64,000 nt of DNA from Candidatus Hydrogenedentales bacterium (GTDB taxonomy: Bacteria; Hydrogenedentota; Hydrogenedentia; Hydrogenedentales; SLHB01). The notes under the pieces are model-generated. The model was given only the letters and a program-made list of their open reading frames with translations, was not told the DNA's origin and ran no database searches. The DNA is taken from positions 19,601-83,600 of the forward strand of contig JBHELB010000071.1 in NCBI GenBank assembly GCA_041859045.1, read 5' to 3'. This document shows, in pieces, positions 1 to 59,032 of this stretch; positions within the stretch are counted from its first letter, which is position 1, and the number at the start of each line of letters is the position of its first letter. A program made the position numbers and the translations under genes.

Positions 1-1229
<1,229 letters not shown>

Positions 1230-1271
1230 GGCATTCCTCCTTGTTACACGCGATAGCCCTGACAGGGGAAA

Positions 1272-1964
1272 TCAGTCTTCGTCCTTCTCGGCGGCCTTGC
1301 GGGAAGACGGCTTGCGTCGACGCTTGCGATCTCGCAGGGCATTGGCCTTGTAGAAGAGGGACGGGTCGATAATCGGGTCGTGCAGCCCCTGCGTCTCGAC
1401 GTCGCCGTAGCTGACGCGGCCGCGGTAGGTGCGATTCGAAAGGATAATGGCGATAGCCTGGCGCGACCAGCGGTTGCCTTTGCGGGTGTACACGCCCTTG
1501 GAATGAAGATAGCTGACGACTTTGCCTGTGCTGCGGGTCTGCAGGTATTCGCGGAAGATCATACGGACGACTTCAGCCTCGTCGTCATCGACCATAAGGG
1601 GCTTTTCGCCTTCGCCGCCGCGACGGTAGCCATAGGGCGCGGGACCGGTGCCGTAGCGGCCCTGTTGTACCGCACTCAGTTGACCACGCTTTACCTTGGC
1701 GCCGTGAGAGAGCCTGCCCGGCGTCTCTTCAAGCACCCCGCTTGGAAAGCGCGGCTCCACGACGCCCGTGGCGGTGGTCCCGTCCTGAAGAGCAACCCCT
1801 GTTTTCTGCCCCGTCGTATCCATGATTACGTGTCCGCTGATTTCGGAGGGCATAGGCCCCCCGGCCCCTATTAATTCCACAATCTCCGCGCGGTTTAAGC
1901 ACCATCGCCGACACTGTGTAAAGAATCCACCCCGTATTGTACGCGACTTCCCGGCATATGTCAA
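1272..1964 (-). pseudogene. Truncated large-serine-recombinase remnant (only the central 'recombinase' domain is recognisable)
   Basis: The C-terminal ~130 aa read GPAPYGYRRG...LMVDDDEAEVVRMIFREYLQTRSTGKVVSYLHSKGVYTRKGNRWSRQAIAIILSNRTYRGRVSYG, the classic recombinase-domain pattern. No resolvase catalytic domain lies upstream and no zinc-ribbon or coiled-coil lies downstream. The N-terminal 100 aa of the open frame look like noise. AT-rich non-coding DNA follows at 1860-2160. Confidence 0.55.
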
Positions 1965-7419: not shown

Positions 7420-7599
7420 CGGTGACGTCACCGCCCCTGATGATTCCTTCTCCACTTCGAAAAGCGCAGCAGACGCCGTGGTATCTTTCACTCTTACACT
7501 TTAAACATTGGGGCTTCTCCAATATTCCCGTTCTTGCCAGCCCGTGCTATTCATGTTAGAGTGGATTCGTACCTGGAGGAAGTTCCTCTGGGAGGATAT

Positions 7600-8886
7600 G
7601 TGGAAAAGACGCACACCAAATTGATAGATATCGAGCAGCCGCCGATTACCGAACGCGCCATCGTAGTGCGGTTGGCGTTGCCGGGCGACAGCGACGACGA
7701 GATCGAAGAGTCCCTGGGCGAGATTGGACGCTTGGCCTGGACTGCCGGCGCCGAGGTCGTGCTGACCACGGTGCAATACCGGTCACGCCCGTGCCCTGCC
7801 ACGTTGATCGGCTCAGGAAAAGTCGAGACGATCCGCGCGGCGGTGGAGGAACTCGGCGCGGATCTCGTGATCTTCGATTCCGATCTGAGCCCCACCCAAG
7901 GCGCGAAGCTCCAAGATACGCTCAAAGTAAAAGTCGTGGACCGTACGCAACTGATCCTCGACATCTTTGCGCAACGCGCGCGCACCAACGAAGGCAAGCA
8001 TCAGGTCGAACTCGCGCAACTTCAGTATGCGCTGCCGCGATTGACGGGGCGCGGCGTCGAGATGATGCGCTTGGGCGGCGGTATCGGCACGCGCGGGCCC
8101 GGCGAACAGAAACTCGAAGTCGATCGCCGCGTGATTCGTCAGCGCATCGATCGCTTGCGCGGCGAACTAGACGAAATCCGCAAACATCGCCGCGTTCAGC
8201 GCAAGCGGCGTTCGGAATCCGCATGCGCGACGGTGGCGCTGGTTGGATACACCAACGCGGGCAAGTCGTCGCTCCTGCGCGCGCTGACGGGTGCGGATGT
8301 GTTGATAGAGGACAAGTTGTTTGCGACGCTTGATCCGACGAGCCGACGCGTGGCGTTGCCGAGCCGACGCGAAGCGGTGTTCACGGATACGGTAGGATTC
8401 ATCCGCAAGCTGCCGCATTCGCTGGTCGCGGCGTTCCGCGCGACGCTCGAGGAAGTCACGGAGGCCGACCTGATCTTGCTGGTGGCGGATGCGGCCCATC
8501 CCGCCGTGCGCGAGCAAATCGACGCGGTGAATGTGGTGCTCGAAGAAATCCATCTGCCCGACAAGCCGCTGATCCGGGTGTACAACAAAATTGATGCCGC
8601 GGACCCCGACGACGTGCATGCGTTGTGCGCGGAGCCCGGAATCTGCGTGCCCGTCTCGGCACATACTGGCGAGGGACTCGATGCGCTGATGCAGACGGTC
8701 GACGCGCAGTTGGTGTCGAGTCGCACGCGCGTGCGGTTGTGCATTCCGCACGAATACGCGGGCCTCGTCGCCCGGCTGCACGAGGACGGTCTCGTATTGA
8801 GCCAGGAGTACGATCACGACGCGATCCATGTCGAAGCTGAAGTCGGCCCTGCGTTACGATCCGCCGTCGCGCGGTTCATCGCCTGA
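7600..8886 (+). CDS. hflX: GTPase HflX
   Basis: Motifs QVELAQLQYALPRL, GGGIGTRGPGEQKLEVDRR, G1 motif VGYTNAGKSSLLRALTG and DTVGFI. Start set at GTG 7600 (GGGAGG RBS 5 nt upstream). The ORF-track TTG at 7534 is possible but has no RBS. Confidence 0.9.
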   Translation: MEKTHTKLIDIEQPPITERAIVVRLALPGDSDDEIEESLGEIGRLAWTAGAEVVLTTVQYRSRPCPATLIGSGKVETIRAAVEELGADLVIFDSDLSPTQGAKLQDTLKVKVVDRTQLILDIFAQRARTNEGKHQVELAQLQYALPRLTGRGVEMMRLGGGIGTRGPGEQKLEVDRRVIRQRIDRLRGELDEIRKHRRVQRKRRSESACATVALVGYTNAGKSSLLRALTGADVLIEDKLFATLDPTSRRVALPSRREAVFTDTVGFIRKLPHSLVAAFRATLEEVTEADLILLVADAAHPAVREQIDAVNVVLEEIHLPDKPLIRVYNKIDAADPDDVHALCAEPGICVPVSAHTGEGLDALMQTVDAQLVSSRTRVRLCIPHEYAGLVARLHEDGLVLSQEYDHDAIHVEAEVGPALRSAVARFIA

Positions 8887-8907: not shown

Positions 8908-10386
8908 ATGAACGTTGCGTTTCTAAACCCGATGTTTGGCGTGGATTTCACGAAGTCCGCGCGCTGGTTTGCGCGATCGCGCGGCCGTGTGCAGCGCCAT
9001 CCCGATTATCTGGCGATTGCCGCCGCGACGGTCGAACAGGCGGGGCATCGCCTGTTCTTCTGCGACGCGCAGGCGAAGAACATGCCGACGGAAGTGCTGT
9101 TGCCGAAACTTCGTGAGTTCAAACCGGATCTGATCGTGTATCAGGCAACCACGCCGTCCATCGATTGCGACATCGCCGCCGCCGCGCGCTGCAAAGAAGC
9201 CACGGGCGCTATGAACGTCTTTGTCGGTCCGCACGTGAGCGCGGAGCCGCAGGATACGCTCGAACGCGCGGAGGGCGCCGTCGACGCGGTGACTATCGGC
9301 GAGTACGACTACACCTTGCGCGACCTTGCGAACGGTGTGCGGCTCGAGGATTGCCTCGGGCTGGTATGGCTGGACCAAGGGACCGTGCGCACCAACCCGG
9401 CGCGGCCGCGCATCGACAATCTCGACGAACTGCCGTTCCCGGCGTGGAAGCATATCGACATTCATGACTACCACGACGCGGGAAAGCTGTTCCCGTTCCT
9501 AACGCTGATCAGCGGCCGCGGCTGCCGCGCGGCATGCACGTTCTGCCAGTTGCCGCAAGTCATGAACGGGCGTTCGTATCGCACGCGCAGCATTGAGCAC
9601 ATCTTGGGCGAGATCGATTACGACGTCAGCCTGTTTCCCAACTTGCGCGAGATCATGTTCGAGGACGATACCTTGACCATGCGCGGCAGCGAGGAACGTC
9701 TGACGGCATTGTGCGAGGCCTTGTTGCGTCGTCGTTCGAGCCTGACCTGGAGCGCCAACGCGCGCGTGGACGTGAACGACTACGAACTCCTGCGGCTCAT
9801 GAAACGCAGCGGATGCCGCATGCTTTGTGTGGGCTTCGAGTTTGGCGATCCGGACGTGCTGTTGCGCATCGGCAAGGGCGCGACGGTCGATCAAATGCAC
9901 ACGTTCGCCGAGAACGCGCACCGCGCGGGCATTCGCGTGCACGGCTGCTTCATGTTCGGCGGTCCCGGCGAAACCCGTGAGACCGCGCGCCGCACCATCG
10001 ACCTCGCCTGCACGCTTCCGATCGACACCGCGCAATTCAGCGGCGTGGTGGCGTATCCGGGCACGGCGTACTACCAGTGGGCGAAGAAAAGCGGGTATCT
10101 TGTTCCGCAGCGTTGGCGGGACTGGGTGGATGCCGATGGGGAGCAAGTGACCACGGTGAGTCTGCCGGACCTTTCCGCGACGGAAATCAACGCGCTCATC
10201 GACGACGGGCTCCGTGCGTTTTACACGCGGCCCTCGCAGATGTGGCGCATGGCCACCAACATTCGATCGATGGCCGACGTCCGGGCCAAGTGGCACGGCG
10301 TCAAGAGCTTTTTGGCGTATTTTCGCACCCGCACGCCGCAGACCTCGGGCGGCGATGGAGGACAGCGTGAATCCAAGCACTCCTGA
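8908..10386 (+). CDS. Cobalamin-binding-domain radical SAM protein (class B, COG1032-like), paralog 1
   Basis: N-terminal B12-binding-like Rossmann part (MNVAFLNP...DLIVYQATTPS...VFVGPHVS). Radical SAM cluster motif GRGCRAACTFCQ (CxxxCxxC). The first 60 aa resemble the HpnJ-like subgroup from memory only. Confidence 0.75.
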   Translation: MNVAFLNPMFGVDFTKSARWFARSRGRVQRHPDYLAIAAATVEQAGHRLFFCDAQAKNMPTEVLLPKLREFKPDLIVYQATTPSIDCDIAAAARCKEATGAMNVFVGPHVSAEPQDTLERAEGAVDAVTIGEYDYTLRDLANGVRLEDCLGLVWLDQGTVRTNPARPRIDNLDELPFPAWKHIDIHDYHDAGKLFPFLTLISGRGCRAACTFCQLPQVMNGRSYRTRSIEHILGEIDYDVSLFPNLREIMFEDDTLTMRGSEERLTALCEALLRRRSSLTWSANARVDVNDYELLRLMKRSGCRMLCVGFEFGDPDVLLRIGKGATVDQMHTFAENAHRAGIRVHGCFMFGGPGETRETARRTIDLACTLPIDTAQFSGVVAYPGTAYYQWAKKSGYLVPQRWRDWVDADGEQVTTVSLPDLSATEINALIDDGLRAFYTRPSQMWRMATNIRSMADVRAKWHGVKSFLAYFRTRTPQTSGGDGGQRESKHS

Positions 10387-11425
10387 CCGTCAGGTCTTTT
10401 CGAGTCTCCAGAATCGCATCCTGACGCACTGGCACGAGGCGCGTCAGATTCTCGACGGTCAAATGCCTCCGCCGCGTACGGCGATCGTTTACCCCACGTA
10501 TGTCTGCAACCAAAATTGTCTATGGTGCGAGTACGGCGAGGACAACACCGATTTCCACACGATGATGCCCACGGAGCGCCTGCGGGCGCTGATGTGGGAC
10601 CTGCGCGCGCTGGGTGTGCGTGCGGTGGAATTCTGCGGCGGCGGCGAACCCACGCTGCACCCCGCGCTGGCGCCGTTGGTCCGCGAGATGAAAGAGCGCG
10701 GCATGAGCACGGGCGTATTGACCAACGGCAGCCGCCTCAGAGGCGAATTGGCGGAGGCTCTGGTCGATTGCGCCAGTTACGTCCGCGTCGGGTTTGACGC
10801 GGGCACCGCGGAGAAGTTCAACGAAGTGAAACGTCCGCGCACGCCGGAGGCCCGGTTCGACGCGGTATGCGACAATGTCCGCGCGCTGTTGGCGCTGCGC
10901 AAAGAGCGCGGCACAAACGTGCTCATCAGCATGAAGATCGTGCTCGATGCGCACAACTATCACGAGATTGAGCCCGCGGTCGATCTGGCGCTCGAGTTGG
11001 GCGTCGACAGTATCCAATTCAAAGCCGCGCGCTTGACCGAGGCCGAGCTGAACGAAGCGCAGTCAGCCGAGGTACAACGTGCGCTCGAGTCCCTGCGCGC
11101 CCAGCATCCCGGCCTGCCCATCGTCGGCAGCGTGGAAAAGCTGAACATGGCCTCGCAGTGCTGGCTGACGCCGCTGCAGATCACCGTCGACACGCTGGGC
11201 GAGGTCTATCTCTGCTGCTACTTCCGGCATCGTAGAGAGCGCCACGGCATCGGCAATGCATTTGAGAGACCACTGCACGAGATCTGGCATGGCGAGCGAC
11301 ACCGTGAGGCGATTCGCGATATTCGCCCGCACGAATGCAACAACCTCGACTGCCGTTTCGTTCACTACAATCGCATCCTGCGCGACGTCATGGTGGACCA
11401 CGACGCGCAATTCGAGTTCATCTAG
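10355..11425 (+). CDS. Radical SAM protein with SPASM/twitch-like C-terminal Cys cluster
   Basis: VYPTYVCNQNCLWCEY (CxxxCxxC) and GGGEPTLHP. The C-terminus has C-x12-G-x4-C (CWLTPLQITVDTLGEVYLC) plus CNNLDC. Start set at ATG 10355 (32-nt overlap with the upstream gene); GTG 10367 is also possible. Confidence 0.7.
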   Translation: MEDSVNPSTPDRQVFSSLQNRILTHWHEARQILDGQMPPPRTAIVYPTYVCNQNCLWCEYGEDNTDFHTMMPTERLRALMWDLRALGVRAVEFCGGGEPTLHPALAPLVREMKERGMSTGVLTNGSRLRGELAEALVDCASYVRVGFDAGTAEKFNEVKRPRTPEARFDAVCDNVRALLALRKERGTNVLISMKIVLDAHNYHEIEPAVDLALELGVDSIQFKAARLTEAELNEAQSAEVQRALESLRAQHPGLPIVGSVEKLNMASQCWLTPLQITVDTLGEVYLCCYFRHRRERHGIGNAFERPLHEIWHGERHREAIRDIRPHECNNLDCRFVHYNRILRDVMVDHDAQFEFI

Positions 11426-11436
11426 GAGCCCGGCGC

Positions 11437-12846
11437 ATGAAGGTCCTTTTGCTTAATCCGCCCGGGCCGTTTTGCCGGGCAGGCTCGCGTTGGCCGCACC
11501 GGCGCGCTGCGCGGCGGGTGGGCATTGACTATCATCCGTTCCCCTTCAGTCTCGCCTACGCCACGGCGCGTCTGATGGCCGATGGACATGACGCAACACT
11601 CGTGGACTGTATCGCCGAAGGCTTGGACGACGACGCATTGCGTCAACGCGCGGCCGCGTTTGCGCCGGATGTGGCGGTGCTGGAGACCAGCGCGCCCAGT
11701 TTCTCGGCGGACCTGGAAACGCTGCGCGCGCTCGGCGTTCCCGGCATCGCCGTGGGCGCGCACGCGACCGCGACATGGCGCGAGCACGTCGAGGCGGGCT
11801 TCGCGGGCGTGATACGTGGCGAGTACGATCAGGTGATTTCCCAGGCCGTAGCGCGCGAACCGCAACCGTGGCTCGCGTTACCCGGCCATGAGCCGGAGGG
11901 CTTCGCGCCGCTCTGTCGCGATCTCGATGCGATCCCACGTCCTCCGTGGGAGCAGATGCCTATGGAGAAGTACAACGATCCGTTCTGCCTAGGGCGCTCC
12001 GTGGCGTTGTTGACGACCCGGGGTTGTCCGTTCTGTTGTAGTTTCTGCACGATCGCGCCGTTCGCAGGTCAGCGCAATTACCGCAAGCGAAATCCTGAGC
12101 GCGTGTGCGACGAAGCGGCGGATCTGATCGCGCGCTACTCGCCGGATGAGCTGTATTTCGACGACGACACGATTACCGCGGACCGTCGACATATCCTTGC
12201 CTTGTGTGCGGCGATCAAGAACCGCAAGTTTGGTCTGCCCTTCAGTTGCATGGGAAATGCGACGGTCGACCACGATGTGCTGGTCGCGATGGCCGACGCC
12301 GGGTGTCGCGCGCTGAAGTTTGGCGTTGAGAGCGGAGACCCGGCCGTCTTGCGGCGCATACCCAAAGAGGTTGATCTTGACGCCGTGGTTCGCACCGCGC
12401 GGGATTGCCGGGAGTTGGGCATCGAGTCGCACGCCACGTTCCTGATCGGCCTTCCGGGAGAAACCCGCGAGAGTGCGTTGCGCACGATCGACTTTGCGTT
12501 GCGCCTCAACACGCACACGTTGCAGTTCGCCATCGCCACCCCCTATCCCGGCACGCCGTTCTATGAAGAGGCGCGCCGCGAGGGGTGGCTTATCAAAGAC
12601 AACTGGCGCGATTTCGACCCCGCGAACGCCGCCGTGGTCTCGTATCCCGGCTATAGTGCGGACGATATCGCCGCAATGCACGCGCTCGCCTGGAAGCGCT
12701 GGCAATGGCACATGTTCACGCGTCGTCCGGCTACGCTCGTGCACCATTTTCGCAATGCCTACCTGCGCGAAGGTGCGGGCGGCGTGCTGCGCCTCGGCGT
12801 GTATAGCGCGGAGCGGCTGCTGCGTATCCTGGGAGGACGGGCATGA
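11437..12846 (+). CDS. Cobalamin-binding-domain radical SAM protein (class B), paralog 2
   Basis: Start at ATG 11437 (MKVLLLNPPGPFCRAGSRWP). Motif TTRGCPFCCSFCTI (CxxxCxxC). Begins 11 nt after the upstream stop. Confidence 0.75.
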   Translation: MKVLLLNPPGPFCRAGSRWPHRRAARRVGIDYHPFPFSLAYATARLMADGHDATLVDCIAEGLDDDALRQRAAAFAPDVAVLETSAPSFSADLETLRALGVPGIAVGAHATATWREHVEAGFAGVIRGEYDQVISQAVAREPQPWLALPGHEPEGFAPLCRDLDAIPRPPWEQMPMEKYNDPFCLGRSVALLTTRGCPFCCSFCTIAPFAGQRNYRKRNPERVCDEAADLIARYSPDELYFDDDTITADRRHILALCAAIKNRKFGLPFSCMGNATVDHDVLVAMADAGCRALKFGVESGDPAVLRRIPKEVDLDAVVRTARDCRELGIESHATFLIGLPGETRESALRTIDFALRLNTHTLQFAIATPYPGTPFYEEARREGWLIKDNWRDFDPANAAVVSYPGYSADDIAAMHALAWKRWQWHMFTRRPATLVHHFRNAYLREGAGGVLRLGVYSAERLLRILGGRA

Positions 12847-14141
12847 AAGTCGCCTTGATTAATCCAGGAAGCCCTCAAGCGCTTCGGAAGGAAAACCTCG
12901 GGCTTGCGTATCTCGCCGCGGCACTCGATGCCGCCGGGCACGATACGCGCATTCTCGATGAAGTCGCGGGGCAAGACGTCGCCTCGGGGCTCGATGCATT
13001 TCGGCCGGATGCCGTTGGCATTTCCTCGATGACCATGTATGTTCCGCGCGCCTATGCGTTGGCGGACGAGATTCGCGCCAAACGCGGGATTCCGGTCATT
13101 CTCGGCGGCGCGCACCCGACGGCGTTGCCGCACGAAGCGATTCAGCACGCGGATTGCGTCATTCGCGGCGAGGGCGAGGAGACGCTCGTGCGCGTGGTCG
13201 ACTCCGGCCGCATCGAGGGCATTGTCGAACCGGCCGGTCCTCGCGACTTGGACGAACTGCCGTTTCCCGCGCGCGACAAACTCGACCTCGAATACTACGC
13301 GGCAGCGGGCGACGAGATCGCCGGATTGTCGTACCGCACGTTGGGCATCATCACGAGCCGCGGCTGTCCGTTTGTGTGCAATTTCTGCATCAACTCGAAG
13401 CGCGAGGAGCGCCTGCGTTTCCACAGCCCGGACCGCGTGATGGAAGAGATTCGCTACCTCGTCACGCGTCACCGCATCGAAAGCATCGCCTTCTACGACG
13501 AGATGATCGGCACGAACTCGCTGCGGTTTTCGACGATCTGTGAGCGGATGATCGAGGAGGGGTTCGCCCATCTAAAGTGGGAGTGTCAGCTCCACGTCCG
13601 CGCGATTCGTCCCGACGTGCTCTCGGTCATGAAACGAGCAGGATGTGTCCAGGTCGCTATCGGCTTCGAAACGGGAAGTCAGCGCGTGCTGGATCGCATC
13701 AGCAAAAATGCCACCGTGGAGTTGAACCTCGAGGCGACGCGGCGCGTGCGCGAAGCGGGGCTGCGCGTCCGCGGGTGTTTCATTATCGGCACACCGGGCG
13801 AGACGGTCGAGGACATCGCGGAGACGGAGCGATTCATCCGCGAAGCCCCGATCGACTTTGTGTCGATGCACTACCTCACGCCGTACCCCGGCACCGCGGT
13901 CTACGATGAGGTCAAAGATCGCCTCGAAGCGGCCGCAATCCCGTGGGACCGTTTCACCACCGGCGACCCGGACACGTTCTTGGTCAACACCGCGATCCCT
14001 GCGGACGTCCAGCGGCGCGCGTTTGAACGCCTACGGGCCCAGGCGGCGTTTCGCAACTACTCGATCGGACAAATGGTGCATCGGACTCTCAAAAACCCCC
14101 ACCACGCTATTCATATCCTCAAGTCCATCTTGAAAAAATAG
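12843..14141 (+). CDS. Cobalamin-binding-domain radical SAM protein (class B), paralog 3
   Basis: MKVALINPG... and TSRGCPFVCNFCIN (CxxxCxxC). ATGA start/stop overlap with the upstream gene. Confidence 0.75.
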   Translation: MKVALINPGSPQALRKENLGLAYLAAALDAAGHDTRILDEVAGQDVASGLDAFRPDAVGISSMTMYVPRAYALADEIRAKRGIPVILGGAHPTALPHEAIQHADCVIRGEGEETLVRVVDSGRIEGIVEPAGPRDLDELPFPARDKLDLEYYAAAGDEIAGLSYRTLGIITSRGCPFVCNFCINSKREERLRFHSPDRVMEEIRYLVTRHRIESIAFYDEMIGTNSLRFSTICERMIEEGFAHLKWECQLHVRAIRPDVLSVMKRAGCVQVAIGFETGSQRVLDRISKNATVELNLEATRRVREAGLRVRGCFIIGTPGETVEDIAETERFIREAPIDFVSMHYLTPYPGTAVYDEVKDRLEAAAIPWDRFTTGDPDTFLVNTAIPADVQRRAFERLRAQAAFRNYSIGQMVHRTLKNPHHAIHILKSILKK

Positions 14142-14191: not shown

Positions 14192-15532
14192 ATGTCTGAC
14201 AATCTTTTTGAACATGCCGCCGCAGAGCGGTTGCGCCGCGAAGCGCCGTTGGCGCGCCGTGTTGCGCCACGCACGCTCGACGATCTGCTCGGCCAGGAGC
14301 ACATCCTTGGGCCCGGCAAAATGCTGCGCCGCGCCATCGAGGCCGACCGCATTACCTCGCTGATCTTGTACGGACCGCCGGGCTGCGGAAAGACCGCGCT
14401 CGCGCGCCTGATCGCCATGCGCACGCGCTCGGGCTTCGAAAACCTGAACGCCGTCACGTCGGGCGTGAAGGAACTGCGGCAACTCATCGAAACCGCCAAA
14501 CAACGGCGCCTTCACGACGGTCGCCGCACGATCCTGTTTGTCGACGAGATTCACCGATTCAACAAGGCCCAGCAAGACGCGTTGTTGCCCGATGTCGAGA
14601 ACGGCGCGATCACGCTGATCGGCGCGACAACGGAAAACCCATTTTTCTCCGTCGTGGCGCCGCTGCTGTCGCGTTCGCAGGTGTTCGAACTGCGCAAACT
14701 CGAGCCGGAGACTACCGCGCGCGTGCTGCGCCGTGCATTAACACTCGAGGACGGCGGACTTGCGGCGCTGAACGTAACAGCGGACGACGATGCGCTGATG
14801 CATTTGGCGCAGTTCGCCGACGGTGACGCCCGTCGCGCGCTGAACGCGCTCGATATCGCCGCGCTCACCACGCCGCCGGAAGAGGGCGCCATCCACATTA
14901 CGCTGGCGGTCGCCGAGGAAAGCATCCAGAAGAAACTTATCCATTACGACGGCACGGGCGACGCGCATTACGACGCGGCGTCGGCGTTCATCAAGAGTAT
15001 GCGCGGCAGCGATCCCGACTCCGCGCTGTATTGGATGGCGTTGATGCTCGCCGCGGGTGACGATCCGCGATTCGTGGCGCGGCGAATCTGTATTTGCGCG
15101 GCGGAAGACGTGGGCAACGCCGACCCCATGGCGCTGGTGTTGGCGACCTCGGCGTGGCAGGCGTGCGAGTTCATCGGTATGCCGGAGGCGCGCATTCTAC
15201 TTGCCGAGGCGGCCATCTACGTGGCCTGTGCGCCGAAAAGCAACACCGCCTGCGTCGGCATCGACGCCGCCCTGAGCGACGTGCGCGAAGGCAAAACCGT
15301 TGCCGTGCCGCGTCACCTGCGCGACTCCAGCTACAAGGGCGCGCAACGCCTGGGCCGAGGCCAGGGCTATCAATACGCGCATGACGGTGAGGATGCGTAC
15401 GTCACACAGGACTATGGCGTGCCGCGCGGCACGTACTATCACCCCACGGATCGCGGCAAGGAAGCGGAGTTCAAAGCCCGAATCGAGGCGCTTCGCGCGC
15501 GGGACGAGCAAGCCGCGCAGGACCAACAGTGA
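14192..15532 (+). CDS. rarA: Replication-associated recombination protein A (AAA+ ATPase RarA/MgsA)
   Basis: Walker A LILYGPPGCGKTALARLIA, Walker B ILFVDEIHRFNK, and the C-terminal MgsA pattern HLRDSSYKGAQRLGRGQGYQYAHD. Confidence 0.92.
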   Translation: MSDNLFEHAAAERLRREAPLARRVAPRTLDDLLGQEHILGPGKMLRRAIEADRITSLILYGPPGCGKTALARLIAMRTRSGFENLNAVTSGVKELRQLIETAKQRRLHDGRRTILFVDEIHRFNKAQQDALLPDVENGAITLIGATTENPFFSVVAPLLSRSQVFELRKLEPETTARVLRRALTLEDGGLAALNVTADDDALMHLAQFADGDARRALNALDIAALTTPPEEGAIHITLAVAEESIQKKLIHYDGTGDAHYDAASAFIKSMRGSDPDSALYWMALMLAAGDDPRFVARRICICAAEDVGNADPMALVLATSAWQACEFIGMPEARILLAEAAIYVACAPKSNTACVGIDAALSDVREGKTVAVPRHLRDSSYKGAQRLGRGQGYQYAHDGEDAYVTQDYGVPRGTYYHPTDRGKEAEFKARIEALRARDEQAAQDQQ

Positions 15533-17019
15533 TCGCGGGGGCGCAAAGACGCGAAAGCAACGGGCGGGAAATCGCGTTGTTCTTCTTGATCGCCGCGCTC
15601 GTGCGGCTGTCGCTCGGCAATACCCCGCTGGTGTCGTGGGATGAGTGGATACTCGGCGGCATCGCTGCGCGGCTTGGAACCTGGGCCCTTCCTAATCTCG
15701 AACTCTACGATATCCTTGTCCCCACCGGTTACTCGTATCCGTCCTTCGGGTTCTGGGTCAACAGCGTGTTTGTATGGCTCTTCGGATCGACGCCGTTTGT
15801 GTTGCGATTGCCCTGCGCGCTGAGCGAGGCCGCCGCCGTGGCGCTTACGTATGCGCTGGCGCGCGAACTCGCGGGTGTAGTCTGCGCCCGCGCCGCCGCA
15901 TTGTTTGCCACGGCCTGCCTCTTCCTGTCGTTTCACGCCATGGTCAGCCTCGACTATTTACTCTCCGCATGGGTCTTGCTGTCGCTGTGGGCGTTTGTGC
16001 GTGCGGCTCGAAAACAGGACAGCGCGTTGCTTGTACTCGCGGCGTTCTGCGGCGGAATGGCCTGTTTCACGAAGTACCACGGCGTCGTGTATCACGCGAC
16101 GCTCTGTGTTCTCGTGTTCTCGTGGCCCACGACTCGGCGCATGTTGCGATGGAAGACCTTGACGGCAGCAGCGGCCGCCGCGTTGGCTGCGCCGCTGTTC
16201 ATGCTTGCGACCGAAGCCGCGACATGGCATTTCTACGGGTACTCGAAAACCCACATCGCCGAGGTGCTTCGCGTGACGGAGTGGGCGTCCTACGTTGCCG
16301 ACCCGCGCACCGGGGCCATCGTCGAGGCGAACGACGGATACTACTTTCTCTACGCGTGGACCACGCTGGGCCCACTATTCTGCGGCCTCGCCGCGCTGGG
16401 CTTTGTCGCGGCGTTGGCGTCTCGTGGCCGCGTGTGGTGGGCATTGGGCTTCGTCGCGGCGGCGTGGCTGTTCTGGGCGTCTACCGCGAGTCTTAAGAAC
16501 GCGCGCTACATCCTGCCGATGGTCTACGTCGCGTGTATCTTCGCAGGATACTTCATCACGCGACTGGCCGCGATTCCCAGGTGCCGGGGAATCGCGTGGA
16601 TGCTCGTGCTTGTGACCGTCGCGCTGGGCGCGTGGCAGTCTGTCGACCGCGCGCAGCAGTATTTTGAGGAAGCCCGGCGCAACATGGCGGTGTACGACTA
16701 TGTGAACACGCACACGCCGAAAGGCGCGGTCATTCTCGCGGAGTCGATCGTGTTTCAGGTGCACATTGCGGGCGGTCCGGGAATCGTGCGCACGACGTAC
16801 GCGCCGGAATCGCCGCAGGCCCTCGACCGCGCGGACTATCTCATCCTCGATCCGCGCACGCATGAGATGCTGCAACGCGGCGTACTTCCGGTGGCGCGTG
16901 GGTACCTCGACTTCCGTCGCGAGGCGGAGAAGGATTGGCCCTGCGTGTTTCGCAAAGCTTCTCGCCAGGGCGAAGTGCGTGTGCTCGCGCGCCCGCAACG
17001 CCCATTGGGTGCGCCCTAG
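15529..17019 (+). CDS. GT-C fold membrane glycosyltransferase (ArnT/PMT-like, GT39/GT83 type), paralog 1
   Basis: About 10 or more hydrophobic helices. TM1 is followed by the acidic loop motif PLVSWDEWILGG (the DE motif of PMT/ArnT enzymes). GTG start overlaps the rarA stop. Its last 3 codons and TAG lie inside the 86-bp repeat. Confidence 0.7.
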   Translation: MIAGAQRRESNGREIALFFLIAALVRLSLGNTPLVSWDEWILGGIAARLGTWALPNLELYDILVPTGYSYPSFGFWVNSVFVWLFGSTPFVLRLPCALSEAAAVALTYALARELAGVVCARAAALFATACLFLSFHAMVSLDYLLSAWVLLSLWAFVRAARKQDSALLVLAAFCGGMACFTKYHGVVYHATLCVLVFSWPTTRRMLRWKTLTAAAAAALAAPLFMLATEAATWHFYGYSKTHIAEVLRVTEWASYVADPRTGAIVEANDGYYFLYAWTTLGPLFCGLAALGFVAALASRGRVWWALGFVAAAWLFWASTASLKNARYILPMVYVACIFAGYFITRLAAIPRCRGIAWMLVLVTVALGAWQSVDRAQQYFEEARRNMAVYDYVNTHTPKGAVILAESIVFQVHIAGGPGIVRTTYAPESPQALDRADYLILDPRTHEMLQRGVLPVARGYLDFRREAEKDWPCVFRKASRQGEVRVLARPQRPLGAP

Positions 17020-17094
17020 CCCTCGTGTCGGGGAAGGTTGTTGCCCAAAGAACACCACACCGCCTCGTCATCGTTTAGCAACGTGGCGACTTTC
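17009..17094. repeat. 86-bp direct repeat, copy 1 (contains a dead duplicate of the dnaE 3' end)
   Basis: Identical base-for-base to 19236-19321: gtgcgccctagccctcgtgtcggggaaggttgttgcccaaagaacaccacaccgcctcgtcatcgtttagcaacgtggcgactttc. Confidence 0.95.
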
Positions 17095-17341
17095 TATAGG
17101 AAGAAGGCGCTCAACCTGCGCGACGGCATCTTGGTCAACGCCGCAGTATCACGACTGCTCTGGCTTAGGTCGCGCTTGATTCCCACAACATGATTCCTTA
17201 CGCTTTTGGGGAGGGGAGGGCAACTGACCGCAAGGGGTTTGCGTTTCCGTGCGAGTTCCTATCCGGCGCGCTATCCCGCTCTGTTTGCGCAGGCGTCTTA
17301 GGCGCGTTGCCCAGCGGGTGCAGAAAACGCGGAAACGGAGA

Positions 17342-19204
17342 ATGACCTTGGTGGGCGAGAAATACCCGGCGATTCTGCAGAATCATCCCCTGTCTCGCCC
17401 TCAGTGGTGCGCTGTAATCGGGATCGTACTGCTAAGTTTCATTCTACGATTCACCGCGCTTGATCTGCGCGGACTCTGGGTCGACGAAATTCTGTGGGCA
17501 GGGTGGACCAATCAGCCCACCCCGCTCGCTGTGGCGCATCAAGTCTTCTGTCCTCAATCGCCACTGTTTGCCTGGCTCGCATGGCCATTTCGATCTTGGG
17601 TGGCAAGCGATTTCACAGTGCGGCTCATTCCCGCGGCATTGGGCGTACTAGGTGTCGTTTTGCTGTTCCTGATGGCGCGGCGCATGGCGGGTGAGCGCAT
17701 AGCACTCGGAGCAGCGCTTATTCTCTCATTAAACCCAAGCCATCTCTCGTATTCCCGACAGTTCGAGCCGTACACTTTTGCTGTTGTAGCCGTGCTGTTG
17801 TTCGCTCTCTCCGCAGATCATGCTTTTCGAAGTAACCGGCGTTCTGCGTGGGGGTTAACGATGTTCCTAGCGGTTATTGCGATCTATGCGCATATCTTTG
17901 CAGGGGCAACTGCGGCAATGCTTACGCTCGGTCTCTGCTTGGCATGGCGGCGTCACGACGGCGCTCTTAAACGGTCTTTAAGAGCGGCGGTTGTCTGGGG
18001 TATCGCGCTCTGCGCATATCTGCCATGGGCGCTTCATGACGTAGAAAATTTCGTCGGCCAGTTGCCCCAGGGGACTTTTGCCTCACTATATCCGCCGGAA
18101 CTGTCCACATCGGGTTTCTTGTGTCGCTTGGCGGTTGCGTTCTGGTGTTCGCCATACATGACGGATTCGCCAATGCTCTTGTGGCCGCTGTTGATGCTGG
18201 TCGTGCTGATTACGGCTTTAGGATGGTTTGCCGCTACTCGCGATGGGTCGGGTGCGGGAACGGTCGCGCTATTCTGGCTGGCTGGGGCAGGCCTGGTGGC
18301 TTCAGCGGTGGCGACGTGGGGATATCTCCTGAAAGGCCACTACATGATGATGGCTTTGCCGGGAGGCTGCCTTCTCTTAGCGCTCGGCGTACACGAACTA
18401 TTTCGACTCGCTTCCGCGAGTCGCAGGCTTCGGCTTCTAACGCGCGCAATGGTCGTCTGCGCTGTCGGCATGCTCGGCTACTGGAGTCTTGGCGCGACTG
18501 CGTACGTTGTCTATATCGCACCGCTTGAGCAGGATTTGAGAGGGATGTTTCGCTGGGTCGAAATGGTGATGCTGGATAACGACCGAGTTGTCGCGCAGAG
18601 CTGGTTTTGCTCCGGAGTAATGGCACGATATGCTGGCGATCGAACATCGCGCGCTATACCCGCCCTACCGGAGAAGACCTTAGCGAATGGGGGTCAAATC
18701 CTTTCGGCAACGCCTGGACGACTTTGGATTCTCTACGGTGAACACTGGATTCCACCCGACTATAGTGCGTGGATGGGCTCCCAAAAGACCGTTTACGAGT
18801 TTCCATTCACGGGAAATTTCGGAAGAGTCTTTCTCATTTGGCCACGCACTTCCAGCGACACATGGGAGCAGCGGCAGTTCCAGATTCGCTATGCCCTTGA
18901 GCAAGCGACCATATATTACCCCAAACAGCATCCGCGCATCCTGCTTGCGCTCGGGCAGCTCGACCGTGAGGCGGGCGCATCCGAAAGCGCTGTTGCGTAC
19001 TGTGAACGTGCCGCGCGCCTTGTCTGGCCTACTCTTCTCGTCGCCCCCACGTCAGCCACCCTATGGAACTTGCTCGCCGATGCTTACGCGGGCGCGAATC
19101 ATGTTGAGGCTGCCTCGCGCTGCTATGGTATCGCAGCGTATCTCTGTGATTTGCAGAGTGAGCGCCGAGGACTCCTGCGGAAAGGATCCCAAATTGGGCG
19201 ATGA
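17342..19204 (+). CDS. GT-C fold membrane glycosyltransferase (ArnT/PMT-like) with C-terminal TPR-like region, paralog 2
   Basis: Start set at ATG 17342 (GGAG RBS). TM1 is followed by LDLRGLWVDEILWAG (DE motif). Many TM helices. The soluble C-terminus ends in TPR-like helices (ALGQLDREAGASESAVAYCERAARL...). Confidence 0.65.
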   Translation: MTLVGEKYPAILQNHPLSRPQWCAVIGIVLLSFILRFTALDLRGLWVDEILWAGWTNQPTPLAVAHQVFCPQSPLFAWLAWPFRSWVASDFTVRLIPAALGVLGVVLLFLMARRMAGERIALGAALILSLNPSHLSYSRQFEPYTFAVVAVLLFALSADHAFRSNRRSAWGLTMFLAVIAIYAHIFAGATAAMLTLGLCLAWRRHDGALKRSLRAAVVWGIALCAYLPWALHDVENFVGQLPQGTFASLYPPELSTSGFLCRLAVAFWCSPYMTDSPMLLWPLLMLVVLITALGWFAATRDGSGAGTVALFWLAGAGLVASAVATWGYLLKGHYMMMALPGGCLLLALGVHELFRLASASRRLRLLTRAMVVCAVGMLGYWSLGATAYVVYIAPLEQDLRGMFRWVEMVMLDNDRVVAQSWFCSGVMARYAGDRTSRAIPALPEKTLANGGQILSATPGRLWILYGEHWIPPDYSAWMGSQKTVYEFPFTGNFGRVFLIWPRTSSDTWEQRQFQIRYALEQATIYYPKQHPRILLALGQLDREAGASESAVAYCERAARLVWPTLLVAPTSATLWNLLADAYAGANHVEAASRCYGIAAYLCDLQSERRGLLRKGSQIGR

Positions 19205-33668: not shown

Positions 33669-34682
33669 ATGAAATTTAAGCGACTTTTCATCCAAATCCC
33701 GTGTTACAACGAGGAAGCCACCCTGCCGGAAACGCTGGCGGCGATTCCTCGCACGATCGACGGGGTGGACGAAGTCCGGGTTTTGATCGTGGACGATGGC
33801 AGCCAGGATCGCACCATCGAGGTTGCCCAGAAGCATGGCGCGGACTACATCGTCCGGCTGCCTTTTCACCAAGGGCTCGCCAAAGCCTTTCTCGCCGGAC
33901 TCGACGCCTGTCTACGCCACGGGGCGGACGTCATCGTCAATTTGGATGCGGACAACCAGTACCGCGCGGACGACATTCCGAAGCTCCTAGCGCCGCTCCG
34001 TCGTCGCGAAGCCGCCATCGTCATCGGAACGCGGCCCATCCGCGAAATCCGCCAGTTCAGCGGGATAAAGAAGCGTCTTCAGTCATTTGGCAGTCTTGTC
34101 GTTCGCTTGGCGAGCGGCACGAGCGTGCCTGATGCGCCCAGCGGCTTTCGCGCGTTCACTCGCGATGCGGCGATGCAGATCAATGTCTTCAGCGCGTATA
34201 CCTACACGTTGGAAACAATCATTCAAGCCGGGCACAAGAACTTGAAGATCGCGTCGGTGCCGATCCGCGTAAACCCCGTGAGTCGGCCGTCGCGGCTCAT
34301 GCCGAACATGTGGACTTACGTGCGCCGTTCGATGCTGATCGTGCTGCGCATTTTCATGACGTATCAGCCCGCGCGCTTTTTTGGCATCCCAGGGTTGATT
34401 TTGATTGCCCTTGGCATGATCCCCGCGTTCCGATTCGCGTTCTACTATCTAACCCGCGAGCAAGGACAGTGGGTGGGCCATGTGCAGTCGTTGATCTTCT
34501 CGGCGATTTTACTGGGGAACGGTTTCTTACTGCTCATCATCGGTCTTGTGTCTGACCTTATTGCGGTCAACCGGAAATTGCTGGAGGAAGTGCGGTATCG
34601 CCTGATGGATATCGAGTACCGCATGGACGATACCCGCATCCGCGCCGCGGAAGACGAGGACTCAAAGGAAGACGAGTCGTAA
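33669..34682 (+). CDS. GT2 glycosyltransferase (polyprenol-phosphate sugar synthase/GtrB-like, C-terminal TM helices)
   Basis: IQIPCYNEEATL, VLIVDDGSQDRT, NLDADNQY (DxD), and two C-terminal TM helices. Confidence 0.85.
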   Translation: MKFKRLFIQIPCYNEEATLPETLAAIPRTIDGVDEVRVLIVDDGSQDRTIEVAQKHGADYIVRLPFHQGLAKAFLAGLDACLRHGADVIVNLDADNQYRADDIPKLLAPLRRREAAIVIGTRPIREIRQFSGIKKRLQSFGSLVVRLASGTSVPDAPSGFRAFTRDAAMQINVFSAYTYTLETIIQAGHKNLKIASVPIRVNPVSRPSRLMPNMWTYVRRSMLIVLRIFMTYQPARFFGIPGLILIALGMIPAFRFAFYYLTREQGQWVGHVQSLIFSAILLGNGFLLLIIGLVSDLIAVNRKLLEEVRYRLMDIEYRMDDTRIRAAEDEDSKEDES

Positions 34683-34710
34683 ATCGCGTAACGTTACGCA
34701 GGGTTAAGCA

Positions 34711-35826: not shown

Positions 35827-35829
35827 GGC

Positions 35830-38565: not shown

Positions 38566-38571
38566 CCACGC

Positions 38572-56725: not shown

Positions 56726-56831
56726 GACGCCCCCCTTCAGGTGTGCAACACGGTCTTTCGACGTTTTCGCACACCCAAGTTCATTCTGCGCCGATTTGGC
56801 GGGAAAGACAAGGGGTTCTTGGCGAAAAACG

Positions 56832-58948: not shown

Positions 58949-59032
58949 TGGTGGGCGAGGCGGGGGTCGAACCCGCAAGCCTTGCGGCAGCGGATTTTAA
59001 GTCCGCCGTGTATGCCATTCCACCACTCGCCC
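58949..59032 (-). tRNA. tRNA-Leu (anticodon UAA), CCA encoded
   Basis: Minus strand is GGGCGAGTGGTGGAATGGCATACACGGCGGACTTAAAATCCGCTGCCGCAAGGCTTGCGGGTTCGACCCCCGCCTCGCCCACCA. Acceptor GGGCGAG/CTCGCCC, anticodon stem GCGGA/TCCGC with loop CUUAAAA, long variable arm, T-arm GCGGG-TTCGACC-CCCGC. Confidence 0.9.

What the first reader, a model, noticed from the sequence alone, without database searches (positions are those of the whole stretch)
8908..14141. Four-gene radical-SAM cassette (3 cobalamin-type + 1 SPASM/twitch-type) coupled behind hflX, with no visible substrate gene
Seen: four consecutive same-strand ORFs each carry a CxxxCxxC cluster motif (CRAACTFC, CNQNCLWC, CPFCCSFC, CPFVCNFC). Three have an N-terminal Rossmann-like B12-binding-type module (M-x-V-x-L/F-L/I-N-P...). 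The second has a C-terminal C-x12-G-x4-C plus CxxxxC auxiliary-cluster signature. The gaps are 21 nt from hflX, then -32, +11 and -4 nt, which argues for one translationally coupled operon. I found no short ORF with an RBS on either flank that could be a RiPP precursor. Established: class B radical SAM enzymes methylate or rearrange unactivated carbons (HpnP/HpnR/HpnJ on hopanoids, GrsA/B on archaeal lipids, BchE, GenK, Fom3, PoyC). SPASM/twitch enzymes include BtrN, anSME and PqqE. Inference: this is a multi-step radical tailoring pathway for a non-peptide substrate. Lipid or glycan fits the surrounding envelope-glycosylation genes. Alternatively the peptide substrate is encoded elsewhere. 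Three paralogous B12-rSAMs plus a twitch enzyme and nothing else (no methyltransferase, carrier or transporter) is not a layout I can match to a characterised pathway.
Basis: partly seen in the sequence, partly recalled or inferred. Interest (0 to 1): 0.75.

Follow-up and report, generated by a model that had tools for sequence, protein, structure and literature searches.

The report
Conserved four-gene radical-SAM sugar-tailoring cassette
Four back-to-back radical-SAM enzyme genes form a real operon conserved in the uncultured phylum Hydrogenedentota; it has no characterised counterpart, and relatives' gene neighbourhoods suggest it remodels a sugar on a membrane lipid carrier rather than a peptide.

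Summary
Window 8908-14141 carries four tightly packed same-strand radical-SAM genes:
- A: B12-domain type, closest to HpnJ.
- B: SPASM/twitch type.
- C: remote HpnJ-like.
- D: generic B12-domain type.

None reaches the cut-off of any curated family. A is only 36% identical to a true HpnJ.

The A-B-C-D order is kept in about 16 independent Hydrogenedentota loci at 57-73% identity, although the flanks differ. B-C-D recurs in Fibrobacterota. The hflX adjacency occurs only in a subclade, so I read it as not functional.

B belongs to a small family: 165 clusters at E<=1e-30 among 1.84 billion proteins. Outside this phylum, B sits next to, or is fused with, a short GT2 that resembles polyprenyl-phosphate sugar synthases. 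PMT_2 GT-C transferases, flippase-like proteins, a YdjC deacetylase and B12-type radical-SAM genes are often nearby. True hpnJ lies in a comparable GT2 / deacetylase / flippase-like module.

Best reading (about 0.5): stepwise radical tailoring of a lipid-linked or glycoconjugate sugar. The exact chemistry and the substrate are unknown.

Rivals not excluded:
- maturation of a peptide or protein;
- tailoring of lipid chains;
- a soluble metabolite pathway.

This is a new variant of a known kind, of moderate interest.

The parts
8908..10386 (+). Gene A: B12-binding-domain radical SAM protein (492 aa), an HpnJ-like paralogue
   Evidence: Pfam Radical_SAM 72.9 bits and B12-binding 43.7 bits. NCBIfam HpnJ TIGR03471 gives 349.9 bits over the full length, below the 577.6 cut-off; the next family scores 104 bits. 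A is 36% identical to a true Mycetohabitans HpnJ and gives 303 bits to a Lawsonia plasmid radical SAM protein that lies in a glycan cluster. Orthologues in Hydrogenedentota are 62-73% identical.
10367..11425 (+). Gene B: radical SAM protein with a SPASM/twitch C-terminal domain (352 aa; the alternative ATG at 10355 gives 356 aa)
   Evidence: Pfam Radical_SAM 66.5 bits and SPASM 39.9 bits. The best NCBIfam hit is only 79.5 bits against a 380 cut-off. Five C-terminal cysteines are invariant. The closest solved structure by sequence is BlsE, 7vob. The model has pLDDT 82, and its fold matches SuiB, DesII and BlsE. The family is small: 165 clusters at E<=1e-30. Homologues are fused to GT2 in P0251 and L041.
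11437..12846 (+). Gene C: radical SAM protein with an N-terminal Rossmann-like domain (469 aa), a remote HpnJ-like paralogue
   Evidence: Pfam Radical_SAM 74.9 bits, with no PF02310 hit. HpnJ model 223.7 bits, next family 134. C is 32% identical to A from residue 1 and 31% to HpnJ. Fibrobacterota orthologues give 352-389 bits.
12843..14141 (+). Gene D: B12-binding-domain radical SAM protein (432 aa), generic class-B type
   Evidence: Pfam Radical_SAM 90.5 bits and B12-binding 81.9 bits. The best NCBIfam hit is BchE at 155 bits against a 481 cut-off, followed by ApyD, the ladderane-type family and HpnJ at about 118 bits. Fibrobacterota orthologues are 41-43% identical.
7534..8886 (+). hflX, the upstream neighbour. 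It is context only and not part of the system.
   Evidence: TIGR03156 GTP_HflX scores 464 bits, above its cut-off. hflX is upstream in 8 related loci, there with a NUDIX gene lying between hflX and A. Other loci have rplM-rpsI instead.

Best explanation
The four genes form one operon for a multi-step radical pathway. The pathway most likely remodels a carbohydrate unit, probably a sugar already attached to a membrane lipid carrier (a polyprenyl phosphate or a membrane glycolipid). It probably does not act on a peptide.

Proposed roles, all inferred:
- B, the twitch-type enzyme, abstracts a sugar hydrogen atom and carries out an oxidation, decarboxylation or deamination-type step, as BlsE, DesII and BtrN do on sugars.
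- A and C, the two HpnJ-like enzymes, carry out carbon-skeleton rearrangements of the sugar. The reference is the ring contraction proposed for HpnJ on bacteriohopanetetrol-glucosamine.
- D, which has the strongest B12-domain signal, is the likeliest cobalamin-dependent C-methylase.
- The product would be an unusual sugar (carbocyclic, C-branched or deoxy) that is then flipped and used in the envelope.

Shown:
- the gene architecture;
- conservation of the cassette;
- the family placements;
- the glycosylation context and the GT2 fusions of B homologues.

Inferred:
- the substrate class;
- the order of the steps;
- every chemical step.
For: 1. The cassette is a conserved unit. A-B-C-D is in the same order in about 16 independent Hydrogenedentota loci at 57-73% identity, with differing flanks. 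B-C-D orthologues (41-48%) occur in Fibrobacterota/Chitinivibrionales, interleaved with GT2, SAM methyltransferases, a DUF362/ferredoxin protein and a flippase-like protein. That flippase-like protein scores 52 bits on TIGR00374, above the 43 cut-off. Alg13/14-like genes and glmS lie nearby.
2. I examined 20 non-Hydrogenedentota loci with B at 35% identity or more, plus the fusion protein P0251. In 11 independent cases a GT2 is adjacent to B or fused with it (L001, L029, L030, L032, L037, L039, L041, L042, L058, L063, P0251). In most of these it is a short, soluble GT2 of about 230 aa; in L001 and L058 it is about 310 aa. The best curated matches of the short GT2s are ArnC, AglJ, dolichyl-phosphate hexose transferase, PpgS and PgfS, all at low scores.
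3. PMT_2 GT-C transferases lie in five of these loci: L030, L032, L034, L035, L039.
4. L063 reads GT2, B, an 11-TM protein, YdjC (the HpnK family), GT2, and further on UbiA.
5. More distant B relatives are fused to GT4 (L057) or to a DegT/DnrJ/EryC1 sugar aminotransferase (P0291).
6. A is specifically HpnJ-like: 350 bits against 104 for the next family. So is C: 224 against 134. The true hpnJ locus reads hpnI (GT2), hpnJ, hpnK, LPG-synthase-domain protein. Locus L031 reads A, B, flippase-like protein.
7. An A-like gene on the Lawsonia plasmid lies among GT2, GalE, SIS, GHMP kinase, HAD and many methyltransferase genes.
8. The closest solved structures by sequence are sugar enzymes: BlsE for B, AprD4 for A and D.
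9. The window itself has a WecA/MraY-type transferase, three PMT_2 genes and a GT2 with the GtrB/ArnC-like architecture.
Against: - In Hydrogenedentota no GT2, GT-C or deacetylase is a conserved neighbour of the cassette. The window's own glycosylation genes are not conserved neighbours in relatives. The sugar inference for this cassette therefore rests on B homologues of 42-48% identity in other phyla.
- The conserved extra genes in relatives are a NUDIX hydrolase and two paralogous lipoproteins, and this model does not explain them.
- B's predicted fold matches the RiPP maturase SuiB as well as it matches DesII and BlsE.
- GT2 plus a SPASM enzyme also occurs in the peptide-derived mycofactocin pathway, and the longer GT2s of L001 and L058 match MftF best.
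- HpnJ's own reaction has never been reconstituted in vitro (PMC13459092).
- Cobalamin binding is untested, and AprD4-type proteins with this architecture lack it.
- B12-type partners of B in other phyla are generic rather than HpnJ-like.
Confidence: 0.5

Rival explanations
1. Peptide or protein maturation. The cassette modifies a ribosomal peptide encoded elsewhere, or a protein. One candidate is the pair of lipoproteins that sit between A and B in relatives, by analogy with anSME, QhpD, Mmp10/QCMT or the ApyD/PoyC-type B12 radical SAM enzymes.
For: The top fold matches of B include SuiB, SkfB, anSME and PqqE. The best NCBIfam hit for B is a tungsten-enzyme maturase at 79.5 bits, and sactipeptide and mycofactocin maturases also score. 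ApyD (RiPP) is the second-best family for A, C and D. One or two lipoprotein genes are embedded between A and B in about 10 related loci.
Against: The window has no short ORF, RRE domain, peptidase or exporter in or beside the cassette, and none of these recurs beside the cassette in the related loci. The ORFs of about 95 aa between B and C in three loci are not conserved and look spurious. This window lacks the lipoproteins yet keeps the cassette. All maturase scores are far below their cut-offs. B homologues are fused to glycosyltransferases and to a sugar aminotransferase.
Confidence: 0.15
2. Tailoring of membrane-lipid hydrocarbon chains, as in archaeal Tes/Gms plus GrsA/B plus Gmm. B would couple or cross-link alkyl chains, and the B12-type enzymes would cyclise or methylate them. 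This would bear on bacterial membrane-spanning or branched tetraether lipids.
For: The layout of one SPASM-type enzyme plus several B12-type enzymes parallels Tes/Gms with Grs/Gmm as reviewed in PMC13459092. A, C and D each score 94-119 bits on the 'lipid biosynthesis B12-binding/radical SAM' model TIGR04072. The cassette is conserved phylum-wide in housekeeping-like surroundings. A UbiA prenyltransferase lies in L063.
Against: B is a 352-aa twitch-like protein with five conserved C-terminal cysteines, unlike Tes, which is described as a full SPASM enzyme. No tetraether synthase chain appears among B's PDB sequence hits or its top 50 fold hits. The TIGR04072 scores are generic and far below the 360 cut-off. 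No lipid-synthesis genes recur next to the cassette, whereas glycosyltransferases do recur next to B homologues.
Confidence: 0.12
3. A soluble small-molecule pathway (a nucleotide sugar, cyclitol, nucleoside-type metabolite or cofactor) rather than a lipid-linked sugar. The NUDIX hydrolase of relatives would process a nucleotide-activated intermediate.
For: A NUDIX gene directly precedes A in 12 related loci, behind either hflX or rpsI. BlsE, DesII and AprD4, the nearest solved relatives, act on soluble nucleoside, TDP-sugar or aminoglycoside substrates. B relatives of about 30% identity in Firmicutes sit with nucleotidyltransferase, PNP/UDP phosphorylase, PEP-utilising kinase-like and NDK genes. 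One distant relative is fused to a DegT-type aminotransferase, a family that uses NDP-keto-sugars.
Against: The closer B homologues (42-48% identity) pair with polyprenyl-phosphate-synthase-like GT2s, GT-C transferases and flippase-like membrane proteins. These point to a membrane-bound carrier. Locus L031 replaces C-D with a flippase-like membrane protein. The window lacks the NUDIX gene.
Confidence: 0.18
4. A chance juxtaposition of radical SAM paralogues with unrelated functions.
For: Class-B radical SAM genes are very numerous: more than 220,000 members according to PMC12931638. A, C and D are only 30-32% identical to one another.
Against: The same order and tight spacing hold in about 16 independent loci with different flanks, and B-C-D is shared across two phyla.
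Confidence: 0.01

Closest known systems
HpnJ with the hpnI-hpnJ-hpnK-hpnL module (bacteriohopanetetrol cyclitol ether head-group synthesis)
   Same: A, and more remotely C, are full-length homologues with the same B12-domain plus radical SAM architecture. HpnJ is by far their best curated family. A is 36% and C 31% identical to HpnJ. The logic of GT2 plus radical SAM plus deacetylase plus flippase-like membrane protein recurs around B, C and D homologues in other phyla.
   Different: The scores of 350 and 224 bits are far below the 577.6 cut-off. No hpnI, hpnK or hpnL homologue was found in the window or in any related locus. According to the bioRxiv survey, the HpnJ domain at its cut-off is found only in genomes that also have SHC and HpnH. 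Here there are two HpnJ-like paralogues plus a twitch enzyme and a further B12-type enzyme, so the chemistry is more elaborate and the acceptor lipid may not be a hopanoid.
BlsE / DesII / BtrN-type twitch or SPASM radical SAM enzymes acting on sugars
   Same: B has a radical SAM core plus a C-terminal auxiliary-cluster domain. BlsE is its best PDB sequence hit. DesII and BlsE are among its top fold matches; BlsE shows 22% identity and a TM-score of 0.72 normalised to the target.
   Different: The BlsE family model scores only 55 bits against a 400 cut-off. B forms its own small family. Its partners are GT2s and B12-type radical SAM enzymes, not antibiotic pathway genes.
Three-component periplasmic glycosylation systems (ArnC/GtrB/PpgS-type GT2, a flippase, and an ArnT/PMT_2-type GT-C)
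   Same: In other phyla, B homologues sit inside exactly this set of parts. The window has three PMT_2 genes and one GT2 with two C-terminal TM segments.
   Different: No known system of this type includes radical SAM tailoring enzymes, as far as my searches show. In Hydrogenedentota the GT2 and GT-C parts are not linked to the cassette.
Archaeal tetraether tailoring set (Tes/Gms, GrsA/B, Gmm) and calditol synthase Cds
   Same: Several radical SAM enzymes of the SPASM and B12 types act in series on one membrane lipid. Cds and HpnJ are both proposed to contract a sugar ring on a lipid head group.
   Different: No specific sequence relationship was detected. Cds was never compared directly. B is much smaller than Tes, and the context points to glycosylation rather than core lipid synthesis.

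Membership tests
HpnJ (TIGR03471, hopanoid cyclitol-ether radical SAM) | Score at or above the curated equivalog cut-off (577.6 bits) | tested here: not met
   A scores 349.9 bits and C scores 223.7 bits. A is 36% identical to the Mycetohabitans HpnJ.
HpnJ (TIGR03471, hopanoid cyclitol-ether radical SAM) | Genomic association with hpnI (GT2), hpnK (YdjC deacetylase) and hopanoid genes | tested here: not met
   tblastn with HpnI, HpnK and HpnL from L061 found nothing in the window or in any Hydrogenedentota locus at E<1e-4. Whole genomes could not be checked for shc or hpnH.
HpnJ (TIGR03471, hopanoid cyclitol-ether radical SAM) | Full-length B12-binding-like domain plus radical SAM core with CxxxCxxC | tested here: met
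   A aligns over residues 5-475 to model positions 5-470 of 472. Pfam domains were found.
Class B (cobalamin-dependent) radical SAM | N-terminal Rossmann B12-binding domain (PF02310) followed by a radical SAM domain | tested here: met
   A (43.7 bits) and D (81.9 bits) pass the 32.1 cut-off. C is supported only through homology to A and HpnJ and through PF02310 hits in its orthologues.
Class B (cobalamin-dependent) radical SAM | Actual binding and use of cobalamin | not testable with these tools
   AprD4, the best PDB sequence match of A and D, has this architecture but does not bind cobalamin.
SPASM-domain radical SAM (two auxiliary clusters) | PF13186 match above its cut-off | tested here: met
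   B scores 39.9 bits against a 21.5 cut-off.
SPASM-domain radical SAM (two auxiliary clusters) | Seven-cysteine motif able to hold two auxiliary [4Fe-4S] clusters | tested here: not met
   Only five C-terminal cysteines are invariant in 12 homologues: C265-x12-G-x4-C283, C284, and C324-x4-C329. This is enough for one cluster, so the domain is twitch-like (inference).
BchE (TIGR02026) | Score at or above the 481.35-bit cut-off | tested here: not met
   D scores 155 bits, A 97 and C 106.
RiPP maturation cassette | Adjacent precursor peptide, RRE domain, peptidase or exporter | tested here: not met
   The window has no room for an ORF in its 21-, 11- and 50-nt gaps. ORFs found inside the cassette in relatives are lipoproteins of 145-205 aa or non-conserved artefacts. 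A precursor encoded elsewhere cannot be excluded.
Tetraether synthase Tes / GDGT-MAS type | Sequence or fold similarity to the solved tetraether synthase | tested here: not met
   It is absent from B's PDB sequence hits at E<=0.001 and from the top 50 fold matches.
Three-component polyprenyl-phosphate glycosylation system | GT2 synthase, flippase and GT-C encoded together with the gene in question | tested here: inconclusive
   Met for B homologues in other phyla. Not met next to the cassette in Hydrogenedentota. The window has PMT_2 genes 1.4-3 kb downstream, beyond rarA, and a GtrB-like GT2 about 19.5 kb away.

The most novel reading that the evidence does not exclude
The cassette, together with the wider GT2-B family, may define an undescribed kind of envelope pathway. 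In it, radical SAM enzymes rebuild the carbon skeleton of a sugar while the sugar sits on a polyprenyl-phosphate or membrane-lipid carrier. The product would be a carbocyclic or C-branched head group. That would be a non-hopanoid bacterial counterpart of bacteriohopanetetrol cyclitol ether and archaeal calditol, characteristic of Hydrogenedentota and Fibrobacterota.
Probability: 0.25. Interest if true: 0.75.

Novelty: new variant of a known kind. Interest (0 to 1): 0.55.

Why it matters
If the reading is right:
- It extends HpnJ-type and Cds-type radical chemistry on sugar head groups beyond hopanoids and archaeal lipids.
- It adds radical SAM tailoring to the widespread scheme of GT2, flippase and GT-C for envelope glycosylation.
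- It gives a first functional handle on a small uncharacterised twitch radical SAM family and on three subfamilies within the class-B group of more than 220,000 members, most of which have no known function.
- It predicts an unusual lipid or glycan that could serve as a chemical marker of an uncultured phylum.
- It yields concrete test substrates, namely polyprenyl-phosphate hexoses or hexosamines.

If the reading is wrong, the cassette is still a conserved four-enzyme radical pathway with an unknown product.

Tried and rejected
- **hflX as a functional partner.** Rejected. It is upstream in only a subclade, a NUDIX gene lies in between, and other relatives have rplM-rpsI.
- **True HpnJ, BchE or any other curated equivalog.** Rejected on scores and on context.
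- **Small ORFs between B and C in L009, L011 and L016 as precursors.** Rejected. They are not conserved and are low-complexity.
- **The second radical SAM on the Lawsonia plasmid as a B homologue.** Rejected. Only a weak N-terminal match was found.
- **B12-type partners of B in delta-proteobacterial-type loci as HpnJ-like.** Rejected. They are generic, with HpnJ, BchE and ApyD scoring about equally, and they form their own group.
- **Foldseek on the B model to separate peptide from sugar substrates.** Uninformative.
- **Promoter and terminator scan.** At chance level.
- **Rfam scan of the window.** Only two tRNAs and no riboswitch.
- **Literature searches.** Searches for Hydrogenedentes or Hydrogenedentota with radical SAM or lipid, for HpnJ, and for radical SAM with polyprenyl phosphate found no description of this cassette.
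- **The homologue search with A.** It returned only close orthologues and gave no view of distant relatives.
- **Firmicutes B relatives at about 30% identity.** They sit in a different, nucleotide-related context and were not pursued.
- **NUDIX or lipoprotein homologues elsewhere in the window.** None found.

Full report
**1. What is in the sequence**

Window 8908-14141 holds four same-strand ORFs.
- A: 8908-10386, 492 aa.
- B: 10355 or 10367 to 11425.
- C: 11437-12846, 469 aa.
- D: 12843-14141, 432 aa.

Each matches Pfam Radical_SAM at E 1e-18 to 2e-25.

The B12-binding domain PF02310 matches A (43.7 bits) and D (81.9 bits). C has no PF02310 hit. However, C aligns with A from residue 1 (32% identity) and with the HpnJ model from position 1. 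Its orthologues elsewhere also carry PF02310 hits.

B matches SPASM PF13186 at 39.9 bits. Across 12 homologues only five C-terminal cysteines are invariant: C265-x12-G-x4-C283, C284, and C324-x4-C329. That is enough for one auxiliary cluster, so I call the domain twitch-like rather than full SPASM.

I prefer GTG 10367 as B's start, because GGAGG lies five nt upstream and the public gene call is 352 aa.

The gaps leave no room for a precursor ORF. Promoter-like and terminator-like sites are at chance level. Base composition is even across the region.

**2. Family placement**

No protein reaches any curated NCBIfam cut-off.
- A: HpnJ TIGR03471 at 349.9 bits over the full length (cut-off 577.6); the next family scores 104.
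- C: HpnJ at 223.7 bits; the next family scores 134.
- D: BchE at 155 bits (cut-off 481); several other class-B families score about 118.
- B: the best hit is a tungsten-enzyme maturase at 79.5 bits (cut-off 380).

A is 36% identical over its full length to a genuine Mycetohabitans HpnJ, and C is 31% identical. A, C and D are 30-32% identical to one another.

An all-against-all comparison gives four groups:
- A, HpnJ and a Lawsonia plasmid enzyme;
- C and its Fibrobacterota orthologues;
- D and its Fibrobacterota orthologues;
- a separate group of B12-type partners found in other phyla.

By sequence, the nearest solved structures are BlsE for B and AprD4, QCMT (9ccb) and OxsB for A and D (9ccb is identified).

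The B model (pLDDT 82) matches SuiB, DesII, BlsE, SkfB and anSME about equally. The fold therefore does not reveal the substrate class.

An exhaustive HMMER search finds only 165 clusters at E<=1e-30 among 1.84 billion representatives. B thus belongs to a small, distinct and uncharacterised family.

**3. Organism and conservation**

The closest homologues of A and B come almost entirely from Candidatus Hydrogenedentota MAGs. A few carry other bin labels.

A scan of species-representative genomes with a B alignment gave 50 loci, and look-ups added more.

The order A-B-C-D is kept in about 16 independent loci. Identities are 62-73% for A, 56-68% for B, 62-73% for C and 57-67% for D. Several further loci are cut off by contig ends.

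The flanks differ:
- hflX lies upstream in 8 loci.
- rplM-rpsI lies upstream in others.
- A NUDIX gene directly precedes A in 12 loci.
- One or two paralogous lipoprotein-like genes (about 145 and 205 aa, signal peptide plus cysteine, no Pfam match) lie between A and B in about 10 loci.

The window lacks both the NUDIX gene and the lipoprotein genes, so it carries the minimal form of the cassette.

Other variants exist:
- Three loci have B-C-D without an adjacent A.
- One locus (L031) has A-B followed by a flippase-like membrane protein in place of C-D.

The cassette is therefore a real unit. The hflX linkage is not a functional one.

**4. Context of homologues in other phyla**

Fibrobacterota/Chitinivibrionales carry B plus C and D orthologues (41-48% identity). 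These are interleaved with GT2, SAM methyltransferases, a DUF362/ferredoxin protein and a TIGR00374 flippase-like protein. Alg13/14-like genes, another GT2 and glmS lie next to them.

In delta-proteobacterial, Smithella, Bdellovibrionota, Spirochaetota, Nitrospirota and unclassified loci, B (35-47% identity) is immediately preceded or followed by a soluble GT2 of about 230 aa.

The best curated matches of these GT2s are ArnC, AglJ, dolichyl-phosphate hexose transferase, PpgS and PgfS. All of these are polyprenyl-phosphate sugar synthases, though the scores are low.

Two independent proteins fuse this GT2 to B in one reading frame:
- P0251, 47% identical to B;
- the L041 ORF, 46% identical.

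More distant relatives are fused to a GT4 (L057) or to a DegT/DnrJ/EryC1 sugar aminotransferase (P0291).

PMT_2 GT-C transferases lie in five of these loci. A Wzx-type flippase lies in two of them.

L063 reads GT2, B, an 11-TM protein, YdjC, GT2, and further on UbiA. YdjC is the family of HpnK.

The genuine hopanoid head-group module reads hpnI (GT2), hpnJ, hpnK, LPG-synthase-domain protein. The same set of part types therefore surrounds both HpnJ and the B/C/D families.

The A-like gene on the Lawsonia plasmid lies in a glycan cluster with GT2, GalE, SIS, GHMP kinase, HAD and many methyltransferase genes.

**5. Most likely function**

Combining these lines, I judge the best explanation to be stepwise radical tailoring of a sugar. 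Most probably the sugar is carried on a polyprenyl phosphate or a membrane glycolipid.
- B acts close to the GT2 product.
- A and C perform HpnJ-like skeletal rearrangements.
- D is the likeliest cobalamin-dependent methylase.

Only the gene architecture, the conservation, the family placement and the context are shown. The substrate and every chemical step are inferred.

My confidence in the carbohydrate or glycoconjugate reading is about 0.5. Four weaknesses limit it:
- In Hydrogenedentota no glycosyltransferase is a conserved neighbour.
- The NUDIX gene and the lipoproteins remain unexplained.
- B's fold is equally close to peptide maturases.
- HpnJ's own chemistry is only proposed, never reconstituted.

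The window does encode the following, but these are leads only:
- a WecA/MraY-type transferase;
- three PMT_2 GT-C proteins, one of them overlapping rarA by 4 nt just downstream of the cassette;
- a GT2 with two C-terminal TM segments.

**6. Rivals**

- **Peptide or protein maturation (0.15).** This is favoured by the SuiB-like, SkfB-like and anSME-like fold and by the embedded lipoprotein genes. It is disfavoured by the absence of a precursor, RRE domain, peptidase or exporter, and by the glycosyltransferase fusions.
- **Lipid-chain tailoring in the manner of Tes/Grs/Gmm (0.12).** The layout resembles that set. No specific similarity to it was detected, and the context points to glycosylation.
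- **A soluble nucleotide-sugar, cyclitol or nucleoside pathway (0.18).** The NUDIX gene, the BlsE, DesII and AprD4 precedents and the Firmicutes context favour it. The membrane-carrier parts around the closer homologues count against it.
- **Chance juxtaposition.** Excluded by the conserved synteny.

**7. Comparison with known systems, and novelty**

The closest known enzymes are HpnJ (for A and C) and BlsE/DesII/BtrN-type twitch enzymes (for B). The closest known system logic is the hpnIJK(L) head-group module and the ArnC/ArnT-type three-component glycosylation scheme.

Membership in HpnJ, BchE, full SPASM, RiPP cassettes and Tes was tested and not met.

Two recent reviews list no system of this composition: one on lipid-modifying radical SAM enzymes and one on B12-dependent radical SAM enzymes. 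Targeted literature searches found none either.

I therefore rate the cassette as a new variant of a known kind. The superfamilies are familiar, the combination is conserved and uncharacterised, and a glycoconjugate substrate is plausible.

Interest is moderate (0.55). Multi-radical-SAM clusters of unknown function are common. This one is phylum-conserved, links to a small GT2-associated family, and gives a directly testable hypothesis.

Noticed in passing
window 55268-56866 (-): A single 532-aa protein fuses Memo and AMMECR1, that is, AmmeMemoRadiSam system proteins B and A (TIGR04336 222 bits, TIGR04335 166 bits). The radical SAM partner of that system is not adjacent; the neighbouring gene is a TolB-like beta-propeller.
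   Followed up: partly
window 33669-43005: A second envelope-glycosylation cluster. It holds a GT2 with two C-terminal TM segments (GtrB/ArnC-like architecture), a GT4, a 911-aa protein with about 10 TM segments and no family match, a GT1 and another GT2. On the minus strand it holds a heptosyltransferase-like gene and a third PMT_2 GT-C. This GT2 could supply a lipid-linked sugar in trans, but that is unproven.
   Followed up: partly
window 14192-19204: The rarA/mgsA gene (14192-15532) overlaps the first of two PMT_2 GT-C genes (15529-17019) by 4 nt; the second PMT_2 gene is at 17249-19204. Housekeeping and envelope genes therefore run on one strand from hflX through the cassette to the GT-C genes. 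This downstream arrangement is not seen in related loci.
   Followed up: partly
related loci L009, L011, L015, L016, L020 (two copies) and L004, L012, L017 (one copy), between A and B: These loci carry paralogous lipoprotein-like genes of about 145 and 205 aa, 32% identical to each other. They share the motifs DPNGN-H and LPxGTH and have no Pfam match. They are embedded in the cassette in relatives but absent from the window. Their role is unexplained; it could be as a substrate, a carrier or an envelope partner.
   Followed up: partly
related loci such as L006 8084-8473 and L022 8040-8519: A NUDIX hydrolase gene of about 155 aa directly precedes A in 12 loci, whatever lies further upstream (hflX or rpsI). 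It therefore probably belongs to the cassette in those genomes, and the window has lost it or never had it.
   Followed up: partly
proteins P0295, P0334, P0303 (distant B relatives): Several B-family radical SAM proteins are interrupted by intein/Hint domains within or just before the radical SAM core.
   Followed up: no
L060 (Lawsonia intracellularis plasmid 1, NC_008012.1): Most of this 27-kb plasmid is one glycan-modification cluster. It holds an A-like radical SAM gene (36% identity), a second radical SAM gene, six class I methyltransferases, three GT2s, GalE, SIS, GHMP kinase, HAD-IIIA, DUF2304 and DUF2142 genes. As annotated, it is an uncharacterised pathway in a pathogen.
   Followed up: no
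window 195-1964 (-) and 58949-59156 (-): A ferrochelatase gene lies next to a 230-aa ORF that carries only the Recombinase domain (PF07508); this may be a remnant of a serine recombinase. tRNA-Leu(taa) and tRNA-Cys(gca) lie near the other end of the window.
   Followed up: no
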